Source: Octopus vulgaris
Lineage: Eukaryota
Direction of reading: 5' to 3'
Length of the DNA stretch: 64,000 nt
Assembly (NCBI GenBank): GCA_951406725.2
Contig: OX597817.1
Coordinates: 115,320,001 to 115,384,000, forward strand
The first letter of the stretch is position 1; each line of letters begins with the position of its first letter. Below are positions 6,600 to 64,000 of the stretch, piece by piece. Below the pieces are notes generated by a model, which had not been told where the DNA came from, made no database searches, and saw only the letters and a list, made by a program, of their open reading frames with translations. The position numbers and the translations under genes are program-made.

Positions 6600-8250
6600 A
6601 TGTCAACTCCCAGCGAGGATAAAAACAAAACACAGCATGCGCAAGGAGTAGAGTGCCTACATTTTGCCATCTTATCAAGACACTTACACAGGGATCTGCC
6701 CTTCATATCAGACCCGAATTTCCTGGCTCATGTCAACAGTCCGGATGTGGTCATTCAACGACTGCGCCATCTCGAGCCCGAAACATTCAGAAGCAACAAA
6801 TACGCATCGGTTCCTGTGCTTTCCGTGATTGACATGACTACGGAACTTGTCGCTTCCTCGGATTTATACTGTTTCGGACTTACCTCCTCCGACATCCATC
6901 ACTGTCAGTTATAGTTGCCAACACACACTTCTAGTTCTATGGGCTCCAGCCTCGCATGTCTGCTCGTTATTGCCTACTGAAACCGCTGGAACGTAGGGTG
7001 CTCAGTACCTGCCAATTATACGCCTTTTTCACCAGGTATGTGGGTGATATCCTCATCCTCGCCCCATCTCATTGGCGCCTCCATTATACTAGATAATTTC
7101 AACCAGATGGACCAACATATTAGCTTCACCATCGAACACATAAATAGCAATATTTCCCTCTTTTTGCATGACTTTCTGATAAACATCATCATCGAGGGAA
7201 ACTTGACACGGTGTTCTACAGAATGCTGGGATTTCATCGTACATTACAAGCCGGCCTTTCCTATCAAGGCTAAGATGAGCTACTTATGTAACGAGATCAC
7301 TCGAATACACAAAAGATGCAGAGATAACACAAGCTGGAATGCACGCATTACTCACCTCCTAAAGGTACTCGAGGCCAACAGATATCCAACGTCCATTACT
7401 AACTCCATACGCAAACACATGTCCGGTAAACGTCGTAATAGAGATCTCTCTGAGACCTGCTTCTTGAAGATTCCCCACTTCAATGAGAAGACCACTTCTA
7501 CTTTTTTACAAAGCTGTCTACAGGGAAGGCTTTGACATCCTCCTGTCCTATTCAGGACCGTCCCTACGTAAAAACCTATCAACAAGGTGGTCACGTGCAG
7601 GTTAACAGCCCTACACACTGACGAACTACTCCATTTGCAGCACTAACATGTGCTTATGTACGTACGTAGTATACCAAATACAATGCTCCAAATGCTTTTA
7701 CATTAGTAGCACAGTATAACTACTCCGTGTCGGAATGAAGAAGCACATTCCTACCAACGCGTCTTCTTTCCGCAAAAACCCAGCTAGATACATCAACATC
7801 TCCAAAGAGATACATGCCTCCATACTGGTCTCGGAGAATAACACTTGAAATCTAAGTAAATTGAAGCTATATTAATCCGCTGTCTCAACCTGAAAATTAA
7901 CGGTCAATCGTCGTTGAGCCGGTGGATCCTATGAGAATGTCACGGCGACTGCGACCAACATCACAATATACGTCATCAACACGACCACGACCACGTGACC
8001 AAGTGCCGCATCAACCTACAATTGGAGAGTTGTTTACACCAACAGTCGGAGAGCTGTTTACACCAACAGTTGGAGGGAGGCCGCTACTGCCGCTTAGCAA
8101 GCACCGAGGAGTATGAGTCAGATAAAGGAATCGATGCAACTTGACACTTCCTGCCCTGTTTCCTTTTGCTGATGGGCTTTTGCACTTGAAACGTAAAGGG
8201 TTTTGTAAAAGTTTTCATATTTTCCCTTTTCTCTACCTTCTTCGGTACTA
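6600..8250 (+). mobile_element. Degenerate Penelope-like retroelement (RT + GIY-YIG remnants)
   Basis: RT remnants MGSSLACLL (~6940), FTRYVGDILIL (YVDD-like, ~7030) and NFNQMDQHISFTIE..LFLHDFLI (ORF 7038-7535). GIY-YIG-like VVYQIQCSKC at ~7667. The 3' region has a 24-bp tandem repeat (8022-8075) and a hammerhead-like motif. Confidence 0.75.
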
Positions 8251-9699: not shown

Positions 9700-10460
9700 T
9701 CTAAAGATGATTTGCATTGCGTCTTTTGAAGCCCACTTCGCATAAACCGATGTAATTCTTCTTTTCTGTAATCATAAACCGTGGCTCTTACTTCTGTCTC
9801 ATATATGACGGAGATTACCATGCAAAGTTGGTCGAGTGAGCAAGCTCCATGGTCGCGACAACTACAACTGGTGGCGTTCCGGATAATGATGTTCTTCATA
9901 TTGAGTCATCCGCTATATGATAACATAATTGAACGTCAGTTGAAGAACTTTCTCTACGTGTGATTTTCAGAGAAATGTTCATCTAAATGACACAGAAATC
10001 TCTTGATTACGTTAGTTTTAAAATTTAGGAAGGGTGGGGTTGTGATAAGCCAAATTATTTTGCCAGTACTATTTTTAGGTCGATTTCTATGAGGCTCATC
10101 TTGGTTAGAGGGGTTGTAGTATATTTCATCGTTAAAGCGAATGTTAGCTTGCGCATTGTTATAGTAGTGGTCTGCCTTAGCAAAAATACCTTTAGATGAA
10201 GAGAGACTAGATATCCTATTACTAATGTTACCTATCACTATAGGTGGGTGACAGGACTCCTTGTCTTTGTAGGAGAGCTTCGAGTTAGGCTTATGGTAGG
10301 GTTTGTAAGAGTGAGATCTTAGATCTGGGGAAACATCTAATAACTAAACTCTCACAAAAAAACGCTGTCTACAATATGTCTTTAAAGTATGAAACTGTTG
10401 GTGTATCATAACTTGATACTTTGAGCATTAAACGATGTTTATCTTTCATCGGATGGAATG
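9700..10460 (-). mobile_element. Degenerate Penelope-like retroelement fragment
   Basis: Minus strand reads SYKPYHKPNSKLSY..SCHPPIVIGNISNRISSLSSSKGIF..IIWL..PPF and then SVIYETEV (GIY-like). This matches the PLE RT thumb/linker/endonuclease region. Confidence 0.7.
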
Positions 10461-18560: not shown

Positions 18561-19039
18561 TTCAACTCTTTTACTCTTTTACTTGTTTCAGTCATTCGAC
18601 TGCGGTCATGCTGGAGCACCACCTTTAGTCGAGGAAATCGACCCCAGGACTTATTCTTTGTAAGCCTAGTACTTATTCTATCTGTCAGTTTTGCCGAACC
18701 GCTAAGTTACGGGGACGTAAACACACCAGCATCGGTTGTCAAGCGATGTTGGGTGAGGAAAAACACAGACACACAAACACACACACAAATATATATATAT
18801 ATATATATATATAGGTAAGAAAGTTGGTGTGTGAAAGCACGATGTAAGAAATTTGAAAAGCTGAATGCGAAACCGGTCATTTCTTCAAAAACTATGTCAT
18901 TGTATGAAAAAAATTTATAACATTCTTCAGACATATTGACTCAAATATATATTTTTTAACTTTTTAAAACAAGCCTTCTGTAGTTTTTTCACTTTTTACT
19001 ATTTTCTATATATATATATACATATATATATACATATAT

Positions 19040-35906: not shown

Positions 35907-37334
35907 GTTTATCCTTAGGGAGAAAAATAGAGAGAGGGATAAAGGAAGCATCGTAATTTGTATATATAGACATGTAAATATGTCTATATCGTTACTCACT
36001 GTATGTCTGTCTGTCTCTATCTATCCGTCTATCACACACACTTGAATACACATGAATATATGTAATAATTTTTTCAGTAACTGGTTTTTCTTTAATCAAG
36101 GCTAGACATTCAGTAGTCGTTGAATAATACCTTCTGACGATTCACCTCATAAATTTTAATATCTCCACTACGTATCCCAGCAATCTCTCTATATATAAAC
36201 GGCAGGTTGTCTGTGCGTGCTTCTGTGTGTCTGTTTTCTCGTACCCTCACCCTGACCACGGTTTTCAACCGATTCTGATGAAACTTGACACACACATAGC
36301 CCAATGTCATAATTCAAAACTAACGCAGCGAAAATTTTGAAAAGTTCCCCCAGTTCTGAAAAAAATTGATAAATTCGACATGGGGTCGAGAATCATAAAC
36401 ATGAACCACAGATTGTCTAGGGGACGCAACTCGAGAATCTAAGCTTTTTTTATGCAACGCATTATCTATGGTAGTTTTCACAACTTGCAATCATTTTCAC
36501 CAAACTCATGGTGAAGCTTAATGTTACCCTAAGAAACTCAATTCTGACGTTAGTTTTCCATGCAATACCTTACCATCAGAAACAATCGATAAAATCATGC
36601 CATTTTGAGAAATCGCGTTCAAATTCAAGATGACATATTTTCGACAATATCTTTCACAAATTGGCAGGAATCTTTTTTTTTTTCACAACGAGCATCATGT
36701 CTGCTCCAAGGAGCTATATAGCCCTTTTTATTCCAATAGGATACATTATTGGAAAAAATCGGTTAATTTAATCATATGTGGCACACATAGCAAACAAATT
36801 TGTGTATTAAACACAAACCAGACTGTCTAGGGGACGCAACTTGACCTTTTTAGCTATCGATAATTCGATCCAACCAATTCCTACCAGGAAGAAATTACAT
36901 TCGAGACTTTACCCCCAACACCGCCACTTCTGCTAATAGCTGCTGCAGCCGCAAGTTATTCGAATACTTTTTTGGTTTAAACTTTCTTTATAACTACCAC
37001 CCCAAACGTTTTACCTTCAATTTTTGACGTACCCTAACGGTCCTCGGACGCTACTTGCAAACTCTTGGTTTATTATAAACCACTTTTGTCGTGTGCATCA
37101 AAAAACTTTTCCTTTCGTTTGTTCAGTTTGATCACTTTTGACTTTTTCGTTGTTGTCACTCACATTGCTGCCAGCTTTTTGGCCGTTTTTGTACATTTTT
37201 ATACATTTTCGGATACTTACCCCACGAGCTCCTTTTTATTACACCTTTACCAAACACATTGCTATCCACCAAAATACTTACCCCACGTGTTCCTTTTTAT
37301 TACACCTTTGCCAAACACATTGCTATCCACCAAA

Positions 37335-40300
37335 ATGCCACCCAAGAAGAGAAAGACCCTCCTCAGCCCTCGGACGGCCAAGGCATCGGCTGATAGGGCT
37401 AGAAGGGCACGCGAGACCCACGAGGAAACCGCCTTGCGCCTCTCGCAAACAGCTTCCCGTTATGCCGCTGCTCAGGCATCTGAAACTACTAGCGACCGTT
37501 CTACCCGACTTGCAAGGGTCGCAGCGTACAGATCTTCCCTCCGCTCGAGGTTGACGAAAGAGCAACAGTCCAGCGAAAACATGCGGGCTTCTTACTGTGC
37601 TTCCATCCGCAGAGCTCGCGAGAACCCCGAACAAAGGGCCATTCGGAATGCGGCTAACGCCACTAGCACTGCCAGGACACGATCTGTCGAAACCTCACAG
37701 CAGAGGAGAACTCGCCAAGATGCTGACGCCGCAAACAAAGCCATGGCCAAAGCTGCCGAAACACCTCAACAGAGGAGAGCTCGCCAAGCTGCTAACGCCG
37801 CAAACACAGCCAGGGCTCGATCTGCCGAAACTCCACACCAACGGACTATTCGGACATCCAGACATGCCATTAACACTGCTTCTGCTAGGGCTTCAGAGGG
37901 TGCTGAGGCGAGAGCTGAAAGGCTTTCAAGGGATGCCACTGCTACCGCTGTCGCACGTGCATCTGAATCTACTGAGGCACGGTGCACTCGACTTGAGAGT
38001 ATCAACAAACGTCGGGATATCATTCGTGGTGTACGTACCCCTGCCCCCGCTTTCTGGTTGTCACTAGCATTCAACTACGACGCCACAATTAACTTCTCCT
38101 TGCGTGACGACATCAAGATAGGGTCAATGACAATTGTATGCCAGTTTTGCAAAGCCAAGAAATGGGCCGGAGAGCCACCTGGTTTGTGCTGCTCTGGTGG
38201 CAAAGTGGACCTGCCACCCCTACGGGAACAACCTCAACCACTGAAGGATCTCGCGGCGGGTTTAACCCCCGATTCGTCACAATTCCTTGAAATAATTCGA
38301 AAGTACAACTGCTCATTCCAAATGACCTCTTTTGGGGCCAAAATTCCTCCCAGAGAAGGCTGGATGCCTACTTTCAAAGTGCAGGGACAGGTCTACCATC
38401 TTATTGGGTCACTTCTGCCAGACGAGATTCAGCAGTCTTCTTTCCTCCAAATATACTTCATTGCCGACTACAACCACCAGGTTGATGCACGCCTTGGAAT
38501 AATACCGGGTACAAGCTATGTTCCTCGCAAAGACATTCTTCTCCGTCTCCAAACCATGCTTCATGATATCAACAGCTACGTCTGCAGCTTCAGATATGCC
38601 TTGGACAGTGCTCCATCTCCAAACTTCACCGTTGTCATTGATGCTGATAAACGACCCCACGGGGAGCACGAACGCCGTTTCAACGCACCTGCGTGCAACG
38701 AAATTGCCGCAGTTATACACGGAGAGCAACACAACAGCTGTGACATAATCATCTCCTCCCGTGGTAACAACCTACACAGGATCAGCGAGACTCACAGATC
38801 TTATGACGCGCTTCAGTATCCATTGCTTTTCCCTTATGGGGAAGACGGCTACCACTTCGGAATTCCTTTACGGCAGCCCTCCAATCAAACTACTGCGGCA
38901 TCAAAGACGGTTTCCTGCAGGGCGTTCTACTCATACCGGTTCATGGTCAGGGAGGGTGAGTTCAACTTATTGCCCCGTTGTCGTCAGCTATTCAACCAGT
39001 TCGCCGTCGACATGGCCGCAAAAATGGAATCGGAAAGGCTGCTATACATTAAACTTAATCAGACCAAACTTCGCTCCGACTCCTACATTCATCTCCGTGA
39101 CGGTTTGCAACAAGAAAATGACCCTCGCAACATCGGCAAGCCATGCATTCTACCCTCCACCTTCACGGGAGGACCGCGATATATGCGTGAAAGGACCCAA
39201 GACGCCTTGACCTACGTGCGCATTTACGGCCGGCCGGACCTCTTTATCACCTACACGTGCAATCCCAGCTGCGACGAAATCACTCGCGAACTCCTCCCGG
39301 GTCAATCTCACACCCATCGACACGACATCGTTGCTAGGGTTTTCCGTCTGAATTTGGGCAAAATGAAGGATTTGATAGTTAAGGGTCAGATTTTCGGGCA
39401 CGTCAGGTGCCACATGTTTTCGGTCGAGTGGCAAAAGAGGGGCTTGCCACATGCTCACATCTTAATTTGGCTCACTCATAAAATCGAGACTAATGACATT
39501 GACAAATTCATTTCCGCCGAGATTCCTGACCCCGATGAGGACCCCGGACTCTACGAAATTGTCCGCACTACCATGGTACACGGGCCCTGTGGACCAAATT
39601 ACGCCAACACACCATGCTACAAAAACGGATTAGCCTGCTCAAAGGGATTCCCTAAACGGTTCACTTTGGAGACTCAAACAGGCGGCGATGGGTATCCGCT
39701 GTACAAACGAAGGAGTCCAGCCAATGGAGGCCGCACGATTACGGTTGGGCGACATCAAGTGGACAACAGCTACATTGTCCCCTACTGTCCTCTCCTGTCG
39801 AAGATATTCAAAGCCCACGTCAACGTTGAGTTCTGCAGCTCCATCAGGTCAATACAATATGTCTGCAAATATATCAACAAAGGCAGCGATGCTGCCATGT
39901 TCAGCATCCAGAGGACCACCAGTCGCGACGAAGTGTCCAACTACTTGGCTGGCCGGTACCTCAGCAGCAACGAAGCGTTTTGGCGCATTTACGGCTTCCC
40001 GCTCCATCAGAGACACCCGGCTGTGGTGCAGCTTGCTGTACACTTGGAAAATGGACAGCGGATTTACTTCACAGAGCAAAGTGCTGTGCAGATAGCCACC
40101 AGCCCTAAAGACACAACGTTGACTGGTTTCTTCAAATTATGCCAACGTGATGACTTCGCTCGAACGCTTTTGTACCCACAGGTCCCATCGTACTTCGTGT
40201 GGTCTAAAAACACCTGGGTTCGACGGAAATCCGGCAAAAACGTCGAAAGCTTCCCAGGCGTCAAGTTTGACTCCTGCCTGGATCGAGTTTACAACATCCC

Positions 40301-42221
40301 GCCAAACCAGCAAGAATGCTTCTACCTCCGTCTCCTTCTACATGAGGTCACTGGTCCAACAGGTTTCGCCAATATACATACCGTCAATGGGGTTCTGTGC
40401 GACACCTTCAGGGAAGCATGTATGAGACTTGGCCTTCTAGAGGATGACTCCCAGTGGGACGCCACGGTGGCAGAGGGTGCTTTACTGCAAACGCATTCGG
40501 CCCTACGACATCTTTTCGCAATCCTTCTTCAAAAATGTCAGCTTAGTGATCCACTAAGTCTCTGGATGAAATACAGGGATGACATGTCGCACGACTTCTT
40601 ACGTACGGCTCAGCAACACTGCCCTTCCGCCGAGATCACGTTCACCAACTTTTACAATTTTTACAATTTTTACAATTTTGCGCTCATTCAACTCGAAGAC
40701 GCTGTCATCGATATGGGTGGGTCTGCTTTAACAGAGTACGGCCTTCCACCACCCACACGTGAACACGCCAATGTTATGTCTGCTGAATTGTTACGCGAAA
40801 CTTCCTACTGCATTGAGGAACTGCACCAGTACGTCCAAGATAATGAACCACGGCTGCTTCCAGACCAGCGCATAGCCTATAACACCATCGTAGACTCTGT
40901 CAGACAGCAACGTGGGGGGATTTTCTTCCTTGATGCACCCGGCGGCACTGGCAAAACCTTCGTCACTAAACTAATTCTGGCAGAGGTCAGACGCAACACG
41001 GACATTGCCCTGGCTGTAGCTTCCTCTGATATCGCGGCCACGTTGCTTCCGGGTGGCAGAACCGCCCACTCTGCCTTCAGACTCCCGCTCGATCTGGCAA
41101 AGTCCGAGTCACCTATCTGCAACATCGCCAAGAACTCAGAACAGGCCGACATTCTGCGCAGATGCAAACTCATCGTATGGGACGAGTGCACTATGGCACA
41201 CAAAAGCGCCCTTGAGGCACTGGACAGGTCCCTGCAAGACATCAGAGACTCTACGGCCCCCATGGGAGGATTAACTTTACTTCTTTCAGGAGACTTCAGG
41301 CAGACTCTACCTGTTATTCCAAAAGGAACCCGTGCCGATGCCGTGCGCGCGTGCCTTAAGTCGTCAGCTCTTTGGGCACATGTGCGGCCCTTGCACCTCC
41401 AAACTAACATGCGCGCGCAGTTAATTGGTGACAGCGGATCCGCTGCATTCTCCAGGGACCTCTTATCGCTCGGTGAAAATAGGATGCTGTCTGATGCGGA
41501 TGGCTACGTTCAATTGGACTCACTTTGCACCATTGTCGACACCCCTGCTAGCCTCCGGGACGCTGTCTTCCACGACCTACAAAACAATTTACGCGACCTA
41601 AAATGGCTGGCAGGCAGAGCTATTCTCGCACCCAAAAATACAACCGTCAACTCCATCAATATCCAGCTACTTGAAGCTATTCCTGGTGATGTCCACGTCT
41701 ACAAATCTATAGATAGGACAGCAGACCCCGCCCAGCTTGCCGATTATCCTGTTGAATTCCTGAATTCACTTGAACCGCCAGGCCTGCCACCACACATCCT
41801 GAAGTTAAAAGTCGGTGCGCCCATTATGCTCATCAGGAATTTGGTTCCACCTAAACAGTGCAACGGCACACGTTTGGTTGTGAAACATTTGGCACCACAT
41901 TTAATAACGGCCACAATACTTACCGGTTGTGGGAAGGGAGAGGACGTCTTCATTCCACGGATGCACCTTCAACCGTCGGGCGCTGACCTACCAATCCACT
42001 TCAGGCGTTCTCAGTTTCCTGTTAAACTCTGCTTCGCAATGTCCATCAATAAATCCCAAGGCCAAACGCTACAAGTCGCTGGGTTACATTTGGGCGAACA
42101 GTGCTTCGCCCACGGTCAACTCTACGTGGGCTGTTCACGCGTTGGGAGGCGCAATGATGTTTTCATGTTTTCGCCCAAACGGACAGCTAGGAACATCGTA
42201 TATACAGAAGTATTCCAGTGA
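37335..42221 (+). CDS. Helitron RepHel transposase (HUH Rep + Pif1-family SF1B helicase), ~1628 aa
   Basis: Likely start MPPKKRK (NLS-like) at 37335 within ORF 37065-42221. Zn-finger-like CQFC..CC. Rep motifs PDLFITYTCNP, EWQKRGLPHAH (HUH) and YVCKYINK. Helicase motifs DAPGGTGKT, IVWDE, GDFRQTLP, FAMSINKSQGQTL and HGQLYVGCSRV. No internal stops. Confidence 0.95.
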   Translation: MPPKKRKTLLSPRTAKASADRARRARETHEETALRLSQTASRYAAAQASETTSDRSTRLARVAAYRSSLRSRLTKEQQSSENMRASYCASIRRARENPEQRAIRNAANATSTARTRSVETSQQRRTRQDADAANKAMAKAAETPQQRRARQAANAANTARARSAETPHQRTIRTSRHAINTASARASEGAEARAERLSRDATATAVARASESTEARCTRLESINKRRDIIRGVRTPAPAFWLSLAFNYDATINFSLRDDIKIGSMTIVCQFCKAKKWAGEPPGLCCSGGKVDLPPLREQPQPLKDLAAGLTPDSSQFLEIIRKYNCSFQMTSFGAKIPPREGWMPTFKVQGQVYHLIGSLLPDEIQQSSFLQIYFIADYNHQVDARLGIIPGTSYVPRKDILLRLQTMLHDINSYVCSFRYALDSAPSPNFTVVIDADKRPHGEHERRFNAPACNEIAAVIHGEQHNSCDIIISSRGNNLHRISETHRSYDALQYPLLFPYGEDGYHFGIPLRQPSNQTTAASKTVSCRAFYSYRFMVREGEFNLLPRCRQLFNQFAVDMAAKMESERLLYIKLNQTKLRSDSYIHLRDGLQQENDPRNIGKPCILPSTFTGGPRYMRERTQDALTYVRIYGRPDLFITYTCNPSCDEITRELLPGQSHTHRHDIVARVFRLNLGKMKDLIVKGQIFGHVRCHMFSVEWQKRGLPHAHILIWLTHKIETNDIDKFISAEIPDPDEDPGLYEIVRTTMVHGPCGPNYANTPCYKNGLACSKGFPKRFTLETQTGGDGYPLYKRRSPANGGRTITVGRHQVDNSYIVPYCPLLSKIFKAHVNVEFCSSIRSIQYVCKYINKGSDAAMFSIQRTTSRDEVSNYLAGRYLSSNEAFWRIYGFPLHQRHPAVVQLAVHLENGQRIYFTEQSAVQIATSPKDTTLTGFFKLCQRDDFARTLLYPQVPSYFVWSKNTWVRRKSGKNVESFPGVKFDSCLDRVYNIPPNQQECFYLRLLLHEVTGPTGFANIHTVNGVLCDTFREACMRLGLLEDDSQWDATVAEGALLQTHSALRHLFAILLQKCQLSDPLSLWMKYRDDMSHDFLRTAQQHCPSAEITFTNFYNFYNFYNFALIQLEDAVIDMGGSALTEYGLPPPTREHANVMSAELLRETSYCIEELHQYVQDNEPRLLPDQRIAYNTIVDSVRQQRGGIFFLDAPGGTGKTFVTKLILAEVRRNTDIALAVASSDIAATLLPGGRTAHSAFRLPLDLAKSESPICNIAKNSEQADILRRCKLIVWDECTMAHKSALEALDRSLQDIRDSTAPMGGLTLLLSGDFRQTLPVIPKGTRADAVRACLKSSALWAHVRPLHLQTNMRAQLIGDSGSAAFSRDLLSLGENRMLSDADGYVQLDSLCTIVDTPASLRDAVFHDLQNNLRDLKWLAGRAILAPKNTTVNSINIQLLEAIPGDVHVYKSIDRTADPAQLADYPVEFLNSLEPPGLPPHILKLKVGAPIMLIRNLVPPKQCNGTRLVVKHLAPHLITATILTGCGKGEDVFIPRMHLQPSGADLPIHFRRSQFPVKLCFAMSINKSQGQTLQVAGLHLGEQCFAHGQLYVGCSRVGRRNDVFMFSPKRTARNIVYTEVFQ

Positions 42222-53828: not shown

Positions 53829-53922
<94 letters not shown>

Positions 53923-54044
53923 CAACAATAAAGGAACGGCCATAATAGGCCATTCACCCACTAGAAATAACAGCCAAAGCTTCAACCGCAAATAAAAGTT
54001 AATTCAGTAAACCAGGAGAAAATTTAAAAAACATTTACCCTGTA

Positions 54045-54151
54045 ATTTCTTATACGATATACCGTTTCATCTGCTGATTAATGGTAAACTAACCTGATTA
54101 AATTAAATCAAGCCAATCTTCCACAGGCCCTCAGATTCTTCAGTAAGAAAT
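54045..54151 (-). ncRNA. Type I hammerhead ribozyme, copy 1
   Basis: Reverse complement of the motif at 55202-55308. Confidence 0.85.
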
Positions 54152-54537
54152 AGCCCAAGACGGAACAGATATTTTCACGAGGCATTTCCGACGTTGCCAA
54201 GTTTATATCTGACCTAAAATTTTCAAATCGTCGCACTCGCGCCAAATTTATCGGCAGCAAATAAATATAAGCCGTCGATTCCATTACGGAATTAACCAGA
54301 AAATTCATAATTAATCAATATAGGGTGGCAAAAAAAAATTTGTAGAATTCTTTTGCCACCAGCGGCCTAGTAGGAAAAAATTAAAATAGTCATAGACCAT
54401 TTTTAAGTTTAACATCAACAATAAAGGAACGGCCATAATAGGCCATTCACCCACTAGAAATAACAGCCAAAGCTTCAACCGCAAATAAAAGTTAATTCAG
54501 TAAACCAGGAGAAAATTTAAAAAACATTTACCCTGTA

Positions 54538-54644
54538 ATTTCTTATACGATATACCGTTTCATCTGCTGATTAATGGTAAACTAACCTGATTAAATTAAA
54601 TCAAGCCAATCTTCCACAGGCCCTCAGATTCTTCAGTAAGAAAT
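54538..54644 (-). ncRNA. Type I hammerhead ribozyme, copy 2
   Basis: Reverse complement of the motif at 55202-55308. Confidence 0.85.
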
Positions 54645-55201
54645 AGCCCAAGACGGAACAGATATTTTCACGAGGCATTTCCGACGTTGCCAAGTTTATA
54701 TCTGACCTAAAATTTTCAAATCGTCGCACTCGCGCCAAATTTATCGGCAGCAAATAAATATAAGCCGTCGATTCCATTACGGAATTAACCAGAAAATTCA
54801 TAATTAATCAATATAGGGTGGCAAAAAAAATTTTGTAGAATTCTTTTGCCACCAGCGGCCTAGTAGGAAAAAATTAAAAAGCTTTGGCTGTTATTTCTAG
54901 TGGGTGAATGGCCTATTATGGCCGTTCCTTTATTGTTGATGTTAAACTTAAAAATGGTCTATGACTATTTTAATTTTTTCCTACTAGGCCGCTGGTGGCA
55001 AAAGAATTCTACAAAATTTTTTTGCCACCCTATATTGATTAATTATGAATTTTCTGGTTAATTCCGTAATGGAATCGACGGCTTATATTTATTTGCTGCC
55101 GATAAATTTGGCGCGAGTGCGACGATTTGAAAATTTTAGGTCAGATATAAACTTGGCAACGTCGGAAATGCCTCGTGAAAATATCTGTTCCGTCTTGGGC
55201 T

Positions 55202-55308
55202 ATTTCTTACTGAAGAATCTGAGGGCCTGTGGAAGATTGGCTTGATTTAATTTAATCAGGTTAGTTTACCATTAATCAGCAGATGAAACGGTATATCGTA
55301 TAAGAAAT
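55202..55308 (+). ncRNA. Type I hammerhead ribozyme, copy 3
   Basis: Stem I ATTTCTTA/TAAGAAAT (8 bp). Core CTGAAGA (55210-16). Stem II ATCTG/CAGAT closing a 58-nt hairpin insert. GAAA (55285-88). Stem III CG-GTATAT-CG. Triplet GTA, cutting after 55300. Confidence 0.87.
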
Positions 55309-55693
55309 TACAGGGTAAATGTTTTTAAATTTTCTCCTGGTTTACTGAATTAACTTTTATTTGCGGTTGAAGCTTTGGCTGTTATTTCTAGTGGGTGAAT
55401 GGCCTATTATGGCCGTTCCTTTATTGTTGATGTTAAACTTAAAAATGGTCTATGACTATTTTAATTTTTTCCTACTAGGCCGCTGGTGGCAAAAGAATTC
55501 TACAAAATTTTTTTTGCCACCCTATATTGATTAATTATGAATTTTCTGGTTAATTCCGTAATGGAATCGACGGCTTATATTTATTTGCTGCCGATAAATT
55601 TGGCGCGAGTGCGACGATTTGAAAATTTTAGGTCAGATATAAACTTGGCAACGTCGGAAATGCCTCGTGAAAATATCTGTTCCGTCTTGGGCT

Positions 55694-55800
55694 ATTTCTT
55701 ACTGAAGAATCTGAGGGCCTGTGGAAGATTGGCTTGATTTAATTTAATCAGGTTAGTTTACCATTAATCAGCAGATGAAACGGTATATCGTATAAGAAAT
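55694..55800 (+). ncRNA. Type I hammerhead ribozyme, copy 4
   Basis: Identical to copy 3, 492 nt downstream, cutting after 55792. Confidence 0.87.
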
Positions 55801-56023
55801 TACAGGGTAAATGTTTTTTAAATTTTCTCCTGGTTTACTGAATTAACTTTTATTTGCGGTTGAAGCTTTGGCTGTTATTTCTAGTGGGTGAATGGCCTAT
55901 TATGGCCGTTCCTTTATTGTTGATGTTAAACTTAAAAATGGTCTATGACTATTTTAATTTTTTCCTACTAGGCCGCTGGTGGCAAAAGAATTCTACAAAA
56001 TTTTTTTTGCCACCCTATATTGA

Positions 56024-56072
<49 letters not shown>

Positions 56073-56086
56073 GTATATATTATATA

Positions 56087-56145
<59 letters not shown>

Positions 56146-58040: not shown

Positions 58041-58049
<9 letters not shown>

Positions 58050-58365
58050 CAATATAGGGTAGCAAAAAATTCAAGAAAAAATTCAAGAAAAATTTTCTGC
58101 AACCAGCGGTCAAGTGAGAAAATAGAAATAGTCACAGACTATATAATATACTCAACAAAATATTAAGGAAAGACCCTTACAGGTCATTCGACTCACTTGA
58201 AAAGAGCAGCCAAAACTCAAACCGCAAAAATAGTAGTAATTCTGAAAGCTAAAGGAGAATTTCTCCTTTAACTTTCAGAATTACTACTATTTTTGCGGTT
58301 TGAGTTTTGGCTGCTCTTTTCAAGTGAGTCGAATGACCTGTAAGGGTCTTTCCTTAATATTTTGT

Positions 58366-58367
<2 letters not shown>
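58041..58367. repeat. Diverged relative of the 493-bp unit forming a near-perfect palindrome
   Basis: Arms 58153-58259 and 58261-58367 are 107 bp each, with 1 mismatch and a 1-nt spacer. Shares TCAATATAGGGT.GCAAAAAA..CCAGCGG..AAATAGTCA.AGAC and CAGCCAAA..AACCGCAAA..GGAGAA with the 493-bp unit. (TA)n on both sides. Confidence 0.85.
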
Positions 58368-58405
<38 letters not shown>

Positions 58406-58814: not shown

Positions 58815-61800
58815 TTTCGCTGCTCTGACCTGGTAATTGCGCAACCTGATAATCGTTACCTCATATGAGTGACAATGCAAAAACAAAATATTGTGAATAA
58901 CGGTGGGAATAAAACTGAAACCAATGATGGCGACAGTGGTACACCCGGTAGGCTCAGAGATTCTGGTGTGGCTCCAACCTGTCGATATCCAGAAAGGGAC
59001 CACCACACACGGCGTAGATGGAGCAAGCAAATTAATGCTGTGGTCATGGAGTGTTACTACCTTAGTAGCCCGGTAGATGACAATGGCACTCAAATTAGGG
59101 GTTACTGATAAAGTATGTATAATCATTGGAGAGAAAAGGGATCGTTTCAACTCACGGAACAAAGACTATGTGATCAAGCTAGAGTAATAAGAAAAAATTG
59201 TTGGTTCACAGAAGTAGAGTTCAAAGCTATCAAAAGACGGGTCATGGAAAATAGTAGCAGAGGCAACAATGAAGATAAAGTTCTTACTAATAAGTGTAAT
59301 CCCATAGCACAGGAAAGGGGTAGTGGTAGTTTACTTGATGAGAGACATATTGATGATCTAAAAGAAGACAATAAAACTAATGGGGACATGACAGATGAAC
59401 AAAAGGCAATCTACGACTAAATAAAGGTAAGACTACAGGAGAACGATAGCAACATTATTTGCAACCTTGAAAAGTTTGATCGATGGAAATTGAACAAAGA
59501 AACGAAAAATGCCAATGAAATTCTGAAATACATCACAACAAAAACATCAAAGAAACAAACATTTTGATCAAGGCATCAAGTATTGTTGTAGCAGATAATG
59601 TACGTGTTGATGTCAAGAAAAAGAAATGTAATGGGAGTGACAGAAGAAAATATCCATGGTGGAAAAGAAGAATTCAGGCGAGGTTATTAGATATGCTCTG
59701 GAAGGACATTTCTGTGTTAGACCGAAAAGAGAAGTGGGTGCTTAAAAGCAAAGAAAATTACCGGGCACTGGATAGGAAATATTAAAAGAAAGGGATTAAA
59801 ATTGGTAATGGAGGTACTAAAACAGCGCCTCGTTGCAAAGAAGGCAAAGATAGTAAGATACGACCACAGAATGAAGGGATACCAGCAGAATAGATAATTC
59901 AGAGTAGATCAGAAGAGATTCTATAATGAAATGAATGGAAATTGTACAGATGAAAAATTGATACCAGCTAACATCGAAAGTCAAAGATTTTGGAGTGACA
60001 TCTGGAGCAAAGACAAGGAGCACAAGAAGGATACTGAATGATTGCAGGAACTGAAACAAACAGTAGTCTGTTCAAAACAGACAGAACTAGTCATTTCAGT
60101 AAGGGAATTGAAGGAAATCAGCAAAAACAAAAGGCCCCGGGACCAGATGGAGTTCAAGGCTACTAGATAAAAGTTTTTGTTGAATATTATGCCCGAATAG
60201 CTGCACAATTCAATGCCGACCAAATAACACCAGAGTGATTGACAATGCGTAGGACAGTGCTGTGCTTGATAAACATTGAAAAAAGCAATACGGTAGACAA
60301 TTACAGGCCGGTATCCTGCTTGCCACTTATGTGGAAATTATTTATTTCTGGAATAATCTCCAGAGTCAATGTACTGACATCTGGAAAAATGGAGTCCTGC
60401 CAGAAGGGTTGCAAGCGTAAGTGCAGAGGTACCAAGGATCAACAAGTAGACAAAACTGTACTTAAAGAATGTAAGAGGAGGAAAATTAACCTAGCTATAT
60501 CATGGATCGGCTATCGTAAGGCGTACGATATGATCCCACATTCTTGGATTGTGGAATGTATGATCGTATTTTGTATTGCATTGAATGTTGAGCGATTGCT
60601 TAGAAAAAGTATGGCGAAGTGGTGGACAGAACTGGCAGCATATGGAAGAAGTTTAGGGAAAATAGAAATCAGTAGAGGCATCTTCCAAGGGGACTTCCTT
60701 TCTCAACTGATCTTTGTACTGTGCCTGATACCACTAATACTGATTCTGAGGAAAGCAAAGGCCGGTTATGTATTCAAAAGCTGCCAACAAAAAGTCAGCC
60801 GCTTGTTATTCATGGATGACTTCAAACTTTATGGCAAGGATGAATCCCAAGTCAGTTCCCTCGTTGATACGGTGTATAATTTCAGTGCCGATATCAGAAT
60901 GGATTTCGGACTGAAAAAGTGTGGTATGTTAGTTTTGAAGCGAGGCAAAATCAAATGTGTGGATGGGCTAGCGATACCGTCGGGGCAGGTTATGAAGCAG
61001 ATAGAAGAGACGGGCTATACGTACTTGGGGATATTGGAAATGCATAAATTGTTGGAGAAAGAAATGACAAGAAAATTTAAGGCAGAGAACTTGTTCAGAA
61101 TGAGAATGATCCTTAAATCGAAATCAAATGGATGGAATAAGATTGAAGCTATCAGCACCTGGGCGGTTTCACTACTTAGAGGACTGACTGGATGCGAACA
61201 CAGCGTTAGAAGAAAACAACATAGCATGGTATGCAAAAAATGACAGAGAACCACTATTATTGGAAGTAAGAAGATCAGGATTATGTAGGATGGAAAATCG
61301 GAAAGATAAAGCAGTTTACAAGGACTTAAGAATGAATGAAACTGAAAATATGTGGAGAAAGAAAGGAATGCATGAACAATTTCATAGGGTTGTTGAAGAT
61401 GACTAAAAGTGATTTAAAACCGGAAACGGAGGCTCTAATCTGTGCTGCCCAACAGCAAGCATTGAGAACCAATTGCATCAAAGGCAGAATAAAAAACACA
61501 CCAGAAAGTGATAAGTGCAGACATTGTGGACAAAAAGGTGAAACCGTATGACATATTACCAGTCGACGTACGCCACTAGCACAGAAAGAATATAAGAGAT
61601 GTCATGGCAATATAGCATGGATTGTCCATTGGAAAATTTGCAACAAGTATGGACTTGACAGGAAAAAAATGTGGTATGAACTTAAACCCGAAGGCATCAT
61701 CGAAAATGATACTGAAAAGATCCTATGGGATTTTATGATTCTGTGCGACCATGAGATAGAGAATAGGAAACCAGCTGACAACAAGGTATGCGATAAGGAA

Positions 61801-62008
61801 GGAAGAAAAGTCGATAGATATGACAAGTTAGCTTGGGAGTTTAAGCAGATGTGGTCGCTGGAAAAGATGGTAGTAGTAAAATTAATTGTCGGAACACTGA
61901 GAACAGTGATTCAAGATGTTGAGAAGTACATGGAATAAATTAAACAGATGCTGAAATAAGAGTAGAGCAATTGAAGAAAACAGCACTGCTTGGGACTGCT
62001 CGAATACA
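58815..62008 (+). mobile_element. Near full-length, degenerate R4/Dong-like non-LTR retrotransposon
   Basis: N-terminal RRRWSKQIN..MECYY and LTEQRLCDQARVI. RT motifs YRPVSCLP, QKGC..RGTKDQ, YRKAYDMIPH, RGIFQGD, LLFMDDFKLY. Knuckle CRHC..H. RLE region WDF..D..ENRKP. Many stops and frameshifts. Preceded by (TAA)n/(TGA)n. Confidence 0.9.
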
Positions 62009-63284: not shown

Positions 63285-63312
63285 CATTGGTTGCTTGGAG
63301 CTAAGAGTATGA

Positions 63313-64000
63313 CTTGAAAAGCAGCCTGCAACCTCTGCACCAGGCAAACAACTAAAAAACAAGAAACCACCAGTCCTGCGGTTGACAAGCTGGAATGTCA
63401 GGACCAAGTGCCCTGGAATATTTGATGATCTACCCAGGGTTGAAGACACAAAGAAAACGGCCATCATTGACCGTGAACTAAAGAGGCTTAACTTAGACAT
63501 TGCTGGGCTACAAGAGACAAGACTTCCCTCAAACGGCAAACTCAAAAAACAGAATTTCACCTTATTTTGGTATGGAAGCGATCCAAAAGAACTTCGTCAG
63601 CATGGCGTTGGCTTTGCAGTGACAAACTCATTACTCTCCTCAATAGAACCACCATCAGGAGGCACTGAGCGTATCATCTCACTGCGCCTCTCGACTTCTT
63701 CTGGCTCAGTACATCTACTCAGCATCTATGCTCCCACTCTCTACAGCTCAGAGGAGACCAAGGACCAGTTCTACAAAGATCTCAACTGTGTCATAAAAAC
63801 TATACCAACAACTGAAAATATCTACCTTCTAGGGGACTTTAACGCTCGCGTGGGATCTGACCATGATTCGTGGCCCATTTGTGTTGGACACTTTAGTATT
63901 GGCAACATGAATGACAATGGTCAGAGACTACTCGAATTCTGCACATACCATAAACTGTGCATGACAAACACATTCTTTACCAACAAGCCATCCCACAAGG
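63313..64000 (+). CDS. APE endonuclease domain of an RTE-clade LINE (open frame runs off the window end)
   Basis: Stop-free frame reading LTSWNVRT, LDIAGLQETR, HGVGFAV, SIYAPT, LGDFNARVG, NDNGQRLLEFC..NTFF. Confidence 0.9.

What the first reader, a model, noticed from the sequence alone, without database searches (positions are those of the whole stretch)
53921..56031. Candidate cephalopod retrozyme system: tandem ~493-nt units, each with a complete hammerhead ribozyme
Seen: near-identical 492-493-bp units, each containing ATTTCTTA-CTGAAGA-ATCTG-[58 nt]-CAGAT-GAAA-CG-GTATAT-CG-TA|TAAGAAAT, which supplies every conserved nucleotide and all three stems of a type I hammerhead. Four copies are present. 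Transcription through two adjacent copies would release a unit-length RNA (55301-55792, 492 nt) whose ends could be circularised. Known: animal non-LTR retrozymes are tandem, non-coding, type I hammerhead repeats that give circular RNAs and are thought to be mobilised by Penelope-like RTs. Inference: this is a young, rather large retrozyme-like family, and the PLE remnants in this window are plausible partners. I cannot confirm whether it has been described.
Basis: partly seen in the sequence, partly recalled or inferred. Interest (0 to 1): 0.92.

Follow-up and report, generated by a model that had tools for sequence, protein, structure and literature searches.

The report
Hammerhead retrozyme, twin-primed Penelope insertion
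This is one of roughly a thousand insertions of a protein-free 492-base repeat with a predicted self-cutting RNA, laid down as two back-to-back arms in TA microsatellites; the arm ends suggest that a Penelope-type enzyme likely copies a single RNA, sometimes already cut by its ribozyme, from two fixed start points.

Summary
The four hammerhead motifs are real, but the array is not a simple tandem: two arms (53921-54879 minus, 54879-56031 plus) meet head to head, two hammerheads on each strand, between (TA)n tracts. Across 121 family loci, 81 show one arm ending near unit base 131 and the other near 238: the tandem/inverted/tail footprint known for Penelope-like elements (PLEs). The ribozyme looks selected: core fixed except N7 and H17, 13 of 17 stem pairs change on both sides. 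46 of 211 arm 5' ends fall within 25 nt after the cut site (12 expected), and the two arms of an insertion stop there together (15 both, 38 neither, 2 discordant), pointing to one RNA, often self-cleaved, primed twice. Two young Neptune-type PLEs share target and layout but no sequence with the unit; one sister-family arm is fused to one of them. Cleavage, transcription and circles are not shown. Verdict: a new family of the known animal retrozymes with useful mechanistic fossils. The scan noted similar elements before, in this genome and others.

The parts
53897..53922 (.). left (TA)n target tract
   Evidence: sequence
53921..54879 (-). minus arm: unit bases 159-492, a full unit, then 1-131; its 3' end (short start site, u131) abuts the left (TA)n
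54045..54151 (-). type I hammerhead motif, predicted cut after 54053
54538..54644 (-). type I hammerhead motif, predicted cut after 54546
54053..54545 (-). predicted 493-nt monomer between two cuts
54879..54879 (.). head-to-head junction of the two 5'-truncated arms (1-nt overlap)
54879..56031 (+). plus arm: unit bases 70-492, a full unit, then 1-238; its 3' end (long start site, u238) abuts the right (TA)n
55202..55308 (+). type I hammerhead motif: stem I 8 bp, CUGAAGA, stem II 5 bp plus 58-nt hairpin insert, GAAA, stem III 4 bp with UAUA loop, predicted cut after A55300
55694..55800 (+). type I hammerhead motif, predicted cut after A55792
55301..55792 (+). predicted 492-nt monomer (unit u1-u492), 35% GC, longest stop-free frame 68 codons, fold z -4.8
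55360..55538 (+). structured domain holding the two start sites (u131, u238; 107-nt 'tail' between them); predicted binding platform for the PLE protein
   Evidence: consensus fold of 8 family members; ends
56029..56143 (.). right (TA)n target tract
58041..58368 (.). separate insertion of sister family B (about 70% alike): two inverted arms with the same two ends in (TA)n; both 5' ends lie 27-29 nt after family B's cut site, so it has no hammerhead
   Evidence: L323

Best explanation
This is a protein-free, hammerhead-bearing retrozyme whose copies sit in (TA)n as two inverted arms with two fixed ends, and it is likely pasted there by a Neptune-type Penelope-like RT-endonuclease that primes both cut DNA strands on one RNA. 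Steps: (1) arrays would be transcribed and the hammerheads would cut out 492-nt monomers, some ligated to circles (inferred; cleavage supported indirectly by where arms stop). (2) The PLE protein would bind the folded domain u60-u238, cut both strands of a (TA)n tract, and start one cDNA at u131 and one at u238 (fixed ends shown; enzyme inferred). (3) Both cDNAs run toward the RNA 5' end: on a cut linear RNA both stop at the cut site, giving short two-armed inserts without a ribozyme; on a circle or uncut multimer they read through up to 10 cut sites (patterns shown; circle inferred). (4) The two cDNA 3' ends join, mostly through 1-7 nt of overlap, giving the head-to-head junction (shown as sequence).
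For: Layout: 82 of 121 loci have a short-end and a long-end arm on opposite strands (one, L276, is really two neighbouring insertions), 5 more have a tiny second arm; 613 exact long ends and 403 exact short ends joined to (TA)n, reversed-pattern control 0. This matches the PLE inverted copy, tail and (TA)n bias (PMC8557442, passages) and the two internal RT start sites of a purified PLE that cuts and extends both strands (PMC11167929). Ribozyme under selection: 11 representatives of families A, B, C keep the core, vary at N7 (all four bases) and H17 (A/C), 178 of 187 stem cells pair, 13 of 17 pairs change on both sides. Cut templates: 46 of 211 arm 5' ends in u1-25 against 5.6% exposure, p 2e-15; 37 of 167 first arrivals stop there against 9 of 106 later ones (p 0.003) while background stop rates are equal, 1.49 and 1.54 per kb. 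One RNA: both arms stop at the cut together in 15, neither in 38, discordant in 2 (L276 removed); arms of one insertion differ at 49 of 6,614 sites against 18,756 of 378,260 between insertions. Not cDNA fold-back: in 30 of 81 insertions neither arm lies within the other. Machinery present: two PLE families with many intact 99-100% identical RT frames; PLE-1 shows the same two-arm, two-end layout in (TA)n; one family-B short arm is fused head to head to a PLE-1 long arm.
Against: No cleavage, transcript or circle is shown; no run is on record as RNA. Only 1 of 9 Xenopus retrozyme dimers cut in vitro, and hammerhead cleavage was dispensable for PLE insertion in vitro. No family-A/PLE fusion in 121 loci and none in 23 more family-B loci; the one fusion concerns family B and shows two RNAs (or a template switch), not one. 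The unit shares no sequence with PLE-1 or PLE-2 (best E 0.14), its tail is 107 nt against 30-40 nt in PLEs, and covariation in the start-site domain is weak (2 of 47 pairs). 29 of 121 loci show one arm only or a rearranged second arm, and 4 others are complex or same-ended. Nine loci whose arms ran off the fetched DNA, or that aligned poorly, were left out of the 121, which slightly favours short arms; the first loci were picked by an intact hammerhead, which works the other way. Some stem I 'two-sided changes' may be a one-base register shift, and the 11 representatives were picked by a pattern that fixed several core bases; an unconstrained count within family A gave the same picture but on redundant loci.
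Confidence: 0.75

Rival explanations
1. Same PLE mobilisation, but only linear RNAs are used: cut monomers and uncut read-through multimers; long arrays are regrown by template jumps or unequal crossing-over, and no circle is involved.
For: No circle is shown. The 523-nt closed-loop contig in run X2 (493 + 30) fits a tandem as well as a circle. Variants recurring every 2 or 3 units in some arrays (L265, L310, L311, L035) do not fit a single monomer circle.
Against: Arm lengths fall off smoothly to 10 read-throughs with no ceiling (0:81, 1:81, 2:28, 3:11, 4:4, 5:1, 6:2, 7:2, 10:1); with a stop rate of 1.5 per kb, linear copying alone would shorten arrays each generation (inference); later cut sites stop far fewer arms than the first; mussel and axolotl retrozymes are largely circular (PMC7229834).
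Confidence: 0.13
2. The hammerhead does not cut in vivo; arms pile up at u1-25 because the RT stalls at the base of stem I or because the A/T-rich u16-u27 stretch favours end joining.
For: Ends cluster at u5, u16 and u22 rather than exactly u1; the active fold is not the minimum-energy fold; canonical loop 1-loop 2 contact bases are not evident (sequence).
Against: A structural stall should act on every pass and on each arm independently, but stops are 22% on first and 8.5% on later passes and are coupled between arms; 17 ends lie at u1-5 or u488-492; reiterated T/A tracts at such junctions look like an enzyme out of template; core and stems are conserved with compensation.
Confidence: 0.06
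3. The unit is merely the pseudo-LTR of an autonomous PLE not yet found, and the arrays are its 5'-truncated ends.
For: Xenopus retrozymes match PLE pLTRs (24 of 57 families homologous to known repeats); only two PLE families were examined here.
Against: Arms read from unit directly into unit up to 10 times, and none of 121 loci continues into coding sequence; no similarity to PLE-1 or PLE-2.
Confidence: 0.04
4. The inversion is a long-read or assembly fold-back artefact, or a cDNA fold-back, on an ordinary satellite.
For: The region is a near-perfect palindrome.
Against: The arms end at different fixed bases with unique flanks at hundreds of loci; opposite-strand joints occur in contigs of two independent runs; 30 of 81 insertions cannot be fold-backs.
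Confidence: 0.02

Closest known systems
Animal non-LTR retrozymes (Cervera and de la Pena 2020, PMC7229834, parts 2-4 of 6 read, supplement unreadable; Li, Clavereau and Pollet 2026, bioRxiv 10.64898/2026.07.22.740005, parts 1-3 of 5 read)
   Same: Non-coding tandem units of a few hundred bases, one type I hammerhead per unit, GC under 50%, dispersed copies, coexistence with PLEs; like the mussel motif it lacks obvious canonical tertiary-contact bases.
   Different: 58-nt stem II insert; insertions are two inverted arms with two fixed ends in (TA)n, a layout not described in the parts read; no homology to the terminal repeat of the two active PLEs found, unlike many Xenopus families; RNA forms not shown.
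EN+ Penelope-like elements, Neptune type (Craig et al. 2021, PMC8557442, 12 passages read)
   Same: Partial tandems, inverted 5'-truncated copy, tail at one end, (TA)n targets.
   Different: No ORF; 107-nt tail instead of 30-40; whole element is the repeat.
Poseidon PAc of Anolis (Frangieh et al. 2024, PMC11167929, parts 1-2 of 4 read)
   Same: Two internal RT start sites downstream of a hammerhead, both DNA strands cut and extended, AT-rich target.
   Different: There uncut RNA was the main template in vitro and no reads ended at the cut; here about a fifth of first arrivals stop at the cut site.
Non-autonomous Chlamys elements such as MRC1 (PMC8557442, passage)
   Same: Non-coding PLE dependants with multicopy head-to-tail insertions.
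   Different: They resemble their autonomous partners at the 3' end and lack canonical hammerheads.

Membership tests
Type I hammerhead ribozyme | Core CUGANGA, GAAA, UH with three stems, stem I open | tested here: met
   0 hits in 100 shuffled windows
Type I hammerhead ribozyme | Compensatory stem changes, free variation at N7, no G at position 17 | tested here: met
Type I hammerhead ribozyme | Match to an Rfam hammerhead model | tested here: not met
   the long stem II insert is a likely cause (inference)
Type I hammerhead ribozyme | Self-cleavage at the predicted site | not testable with these tools
   indirect only: arm ends pile up at the site
Animal non-LTR retrozyme | Tandem non-coding units, each with a type I hammerhead, at least two consecutive | tested here: met
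   up to 10 read-throughs
Animal non-LTR retrozyme | Dispersed high copy number | tested here: met
   2,516 matches to a motif shared by the related families; 613 and 403 exact ends
Animal non-LTR retrozyme | Expressed as monomeric linear and circular RNA | tested here: inconclusive
   no run on record as RNA; one closed-loop contig of unit length in a run only guessed to be RNA
Animal non-LTR retrozyme | Target-site duplication longer than 4 bp when present | tested here: inconclusive
   both flanks are (TA)n, so a duplication cannot be read
Non-autonomous PLE dependant | PLE insertion footprint: inverted 5'-truncated copy, tail at one end, microsatellite target | tested here: met
Non-autonomous PLE dependant | Sequence shared with the terminal repeat of an autonomous PLE | tested here: not met
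   PLE-1 and PLE-2 only, best E 0.14; other PLE families not screened
Non-autonomous PLE dependant | Active autonomous partner with the same target and layout | tested here: inconclusive
   two young candidates; one family-B/PLE-1 fusion; none for family A
Autonomous PLE | RT plus GIY-YIG ORF | tested here: not met
   longest stop-free frame in the unit 68 codons

The most novel reading that the evidence does not exclude
The insertions are a genomic record of the PLE reaction itself: one RT-endonuclease dimer primes both strands of a (TA)n break at two internal sites of a single RNA; ribozyme-cut linear monomers give short dead inserts and circles give rolling-circle arrays. The parasite hijacks a hammerhead-less, two-ORF Neptune element by shape rather than by descent from its terminal repeat.
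Probability: 0.4. Interest if true: 0.75.

Novelty: new member of a known kind. Interest (0 to 1): 0.55.

Why it matters
That PLEs mobilise animal retrozymes from circular RNA is a published hypothesis with little direct support (PMC7229834 discussion; the 2026 preprint says the life cycle is little tested), and how PLEs make their inverted copies is described as undefined (PMC8557442). This family supplies a 492-nt template with two mapped start sites, two intact candidate enzymes in the same genome, and countable evidence that both arms come from one RNA and that self-cleaved RNA is copied. With the existing in vitro PLE assay (PMC11167929) each step can be tested.

Tried and rejected
Rfam scans of the window: no hammerhead. 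RF00163 over the genome (73 of about 263,000 candidates scored) returned other hammerhead families; of 30 loci none had PLE-1-like RT sequence nearby. First end-count (53 of 198) was inflated by a reference that began at the cut site; redone with a rotated reference. Search for family-A/PLE fusions: none; L260, L031 and L067 are neighbours separated by (TA)n. Expression: no RNA holder listed; four runs guessed to be RNA hold the unit and PLE-1 as contigs, which shows presence only and no RNA ends. MAFFT misplaced stem II of families B and C, so pairs were counted from core anchors. A lead from an earlier scan note, a second retrotransposon inserting specifically into such elements, was not seen: sequence next to single arms shared no common foreign element. 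Literature: searches listed no paper on an octopus or cephalopod retrozyme; most subscription papers and repeat libraries (Repbase, Dfam) are not searchable here, and supplements of PMC7229834 and of the preprint were not seen and may list such families.

Full report
Observation. Unit coordinates below are u1-u492 = window 55301-55792, u1 being the first base after the predicted cut. The region holds 1.9 units on the minus strand (53921-54879) and 2.3 on the plus strand (54879-56031), 99% alike, joined head to head at 54879 and flanked by (TA)n. The quoted hammerhead motif occurs four times, twice per strand; a strict descriptor finds none in 100 shuffled windows. Rfam does not detect it. The 121-nt motif folds better than all 200 shuffles (z -3.8); the active fold is 1.8 kcal/mol above the minimum. 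The unit has no long frame.

Family. The window lies in a 2.8-Gb genome; the motif has 1,169 candidate matches, of which the 40 scored were identical. A motif shared by the related families matches 2,516 times. A truncated sister copy (family B, about 70% alike) lies at 58041-58368; full family-B units are about 490 nt with their own hammerhead, and a third variant, C, was seen at L276. In 11 representatives the core is constant except N7 and H17, 178 of 187 stem cells pair and 13 of 17 pairs change on both sides. These representatives came from a pattern that fixes some core bases; an unconstrained count in family A, on redundant loci, also put core variation at N7 (64) and H17 (21, all C), with 8 at C3 and at most 2 at any other core base. 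This is the signature of a ribozyme kept by selection, though only 1 of 9 predicted Xenopus retrozymes cut in vitro.

Insertion layout. Exact ends joined to (TA)n number 613 at u238 and 403 at u131, controls 0. In 121 non-redundant family-A loci, 82 have one arm of each kind on opposite strands (L276 among them is two neighbouring insertions), 34 show one mapped arm, 3 are complex, 1 has two short and 1 two long ends. Of the 34, 5 have a tiny second arm, 15 run into (TA)n and 14 into other sequence, half of it rearranged family sequence. Junctions mostly overlap by 1-7 nt. An inverted 5'-truncated copy, a tail at one end and (TA)n bias are the known PLE footprint (PMC8557442), and the tail corresponds to two internal RT start sites in a purified PLE that cuts and extends both strands (PMC11167929). 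Here the tail is 107 nt. The domain holding both sites has a conserved predicted fold, with weak covariation.

Template. Arm 5' ends mark where copying stopped. 46 of 211 lie in u1-25 (5.6% of bases traversed; p 2e-15), none in excess just upstream (11 in u468-492, p 0.47). First arrivals stop there in 37 of 167 cases, later arrivals in 9 of 106 (p 0.003), while background rates are the same. Where both arms reach the site, both stop in 15, neither in 38, one in 2. Arms of one insertion are nearly identical (49 of 6,614 sites, 17 of them from L276) against 5% between insertions, a figure raised by subfamily differences. In 30 of 81 insertions neither arm lies within the other, excluding fold-back copying of the first cDNA. 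I infer two classes of template, each primed twice: RNA with a 5' end at the ribozyme cut, and RNA without an end there. Read-through counts decay smoothly to 10, as a circle would give; uncut multimers are not excluded, and variants recurring every 2-3 units in some arrays need multimeric templates or inherited patterns. Nine loci with arms running off the fetched DNA or aligning poorly were left out.

Partner. A family-B short arm is fused, with a 2-3 nt overlap and no (TA)n between, to an inverted 5'-truncated autonomous PLE arm ending at that PLE's long site (L070; the same event appears on two contigs). That PLE-1 has a 4,271-bp period, a 775-codon RT and GIY-YIG frame (Pfam RVT_1 E 2e-6, just under the cut-off; GIY-YIG E 3e-5), a CX4CxxC linker of the kind described for Neptune and Nematis, the same two-arm, two-end layout in (TA)n, 150 of 150 scored matches at 99-100% identity and no hammerhead core on its sense strand. 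PLE-2 (4,007-bp period, 811 codons, 46% identical) is equally young. Neither shares sequence with the unit, and no family-A fusion was found, so the partner of family A is unnamed. Named homologues of PLE-1 include bivalve proteins; no call names the host organism.

Expression. No holder is on record as RNA. Run X2, guessed to be RNA, has a 523-nt contig closing on itself over one unit, which fits a circle or a tandem. This is not counted as proof.

Comparison and verdict. It works like, and meets the sequence criteria of, animal non-LTR retrozymes (PMC7229834; bioRxiv 10.64898/2026.07.22.740005); the RNA criteria are untested. It bears the PLE footprint but fails the test of homology to an active PLE's terminal repeat. 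Paper searches listed no cephalopod retrozyme, with the limits given above. Earlier unchecked scan notes, read after my analysis, describe the same layout for several families in this and other genomes; two judged a stop at the cut site to be chance in other families, whereas here it is a strong, coupled excess. New member of a known kind; interest 0.55 because it makes two open mechanistic questions testable.

Noticed in passing
window 37038-42221 (+): Intact 1,727-codon Helitron Rep-helicase frame (PF14214, PF05970, STPR repeats), so a young autonomous Helitron.
   Followed up: partly
L108:2024-5664 (+); L308:2171-5916 (-): PLE-1 and PLE-2 each have a separate upstream frame (about 430 codons, no Pfam hit for PLE-1) overlapping the RT frame by about 90 and 170 nt; canonical PLEs are described with one ORF, so a frameshift or splice may join them. 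Both carry a short (TA) stretch at their own long start site, just before the first ATG, and neither shows a clear hammerhead.
   Followed up: partly
L070:4742-7256: Fused insertion: family-B retrozyme arm plus autonomous PLE-1 arm; present twice in the assembly (C13 and small contig C57).
   Followed up: yes
L249:365-596; L169; L193; L252; L277: Reiterated T/A tracts of 15-230 nt at junctions where both arms end near the cut site, like repeated slipping at a template end.
   Followed up: partly
L265, L310, L311, L035: Unit variants recur every 2 or 3 units within an arm.
   Followed up: partly
L116-L145: Other, more diverged type I hammerhead families found with RF00163, with short or about 60-nt stem II inserts, several with inverted neighbours.
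   Followed up: no
window 18846-19015: 72% match to the 3' end of PLE-2 running into (TA)n.
   Followed up: partly
window 6981-7535 (+) and 9954-10343 (-): Short frames that look like decayed PLE RT C-terminal parts by eye; no Pfam hit and no tblastn hit from three PLE proteins.
   Followed up: partly
window 58900-62000 (+) and 63300-64000 (+): Decayed non-LTR retrotransposon sequence (RVT_1 at 60239-61240) and an endonuclease-like start of another at the window end (by eye).
   Followed up: no
L075:2216-3694 (-): 493-codon frame that resembles a Naiad-type PLE RT by eye.
   Followed up: no
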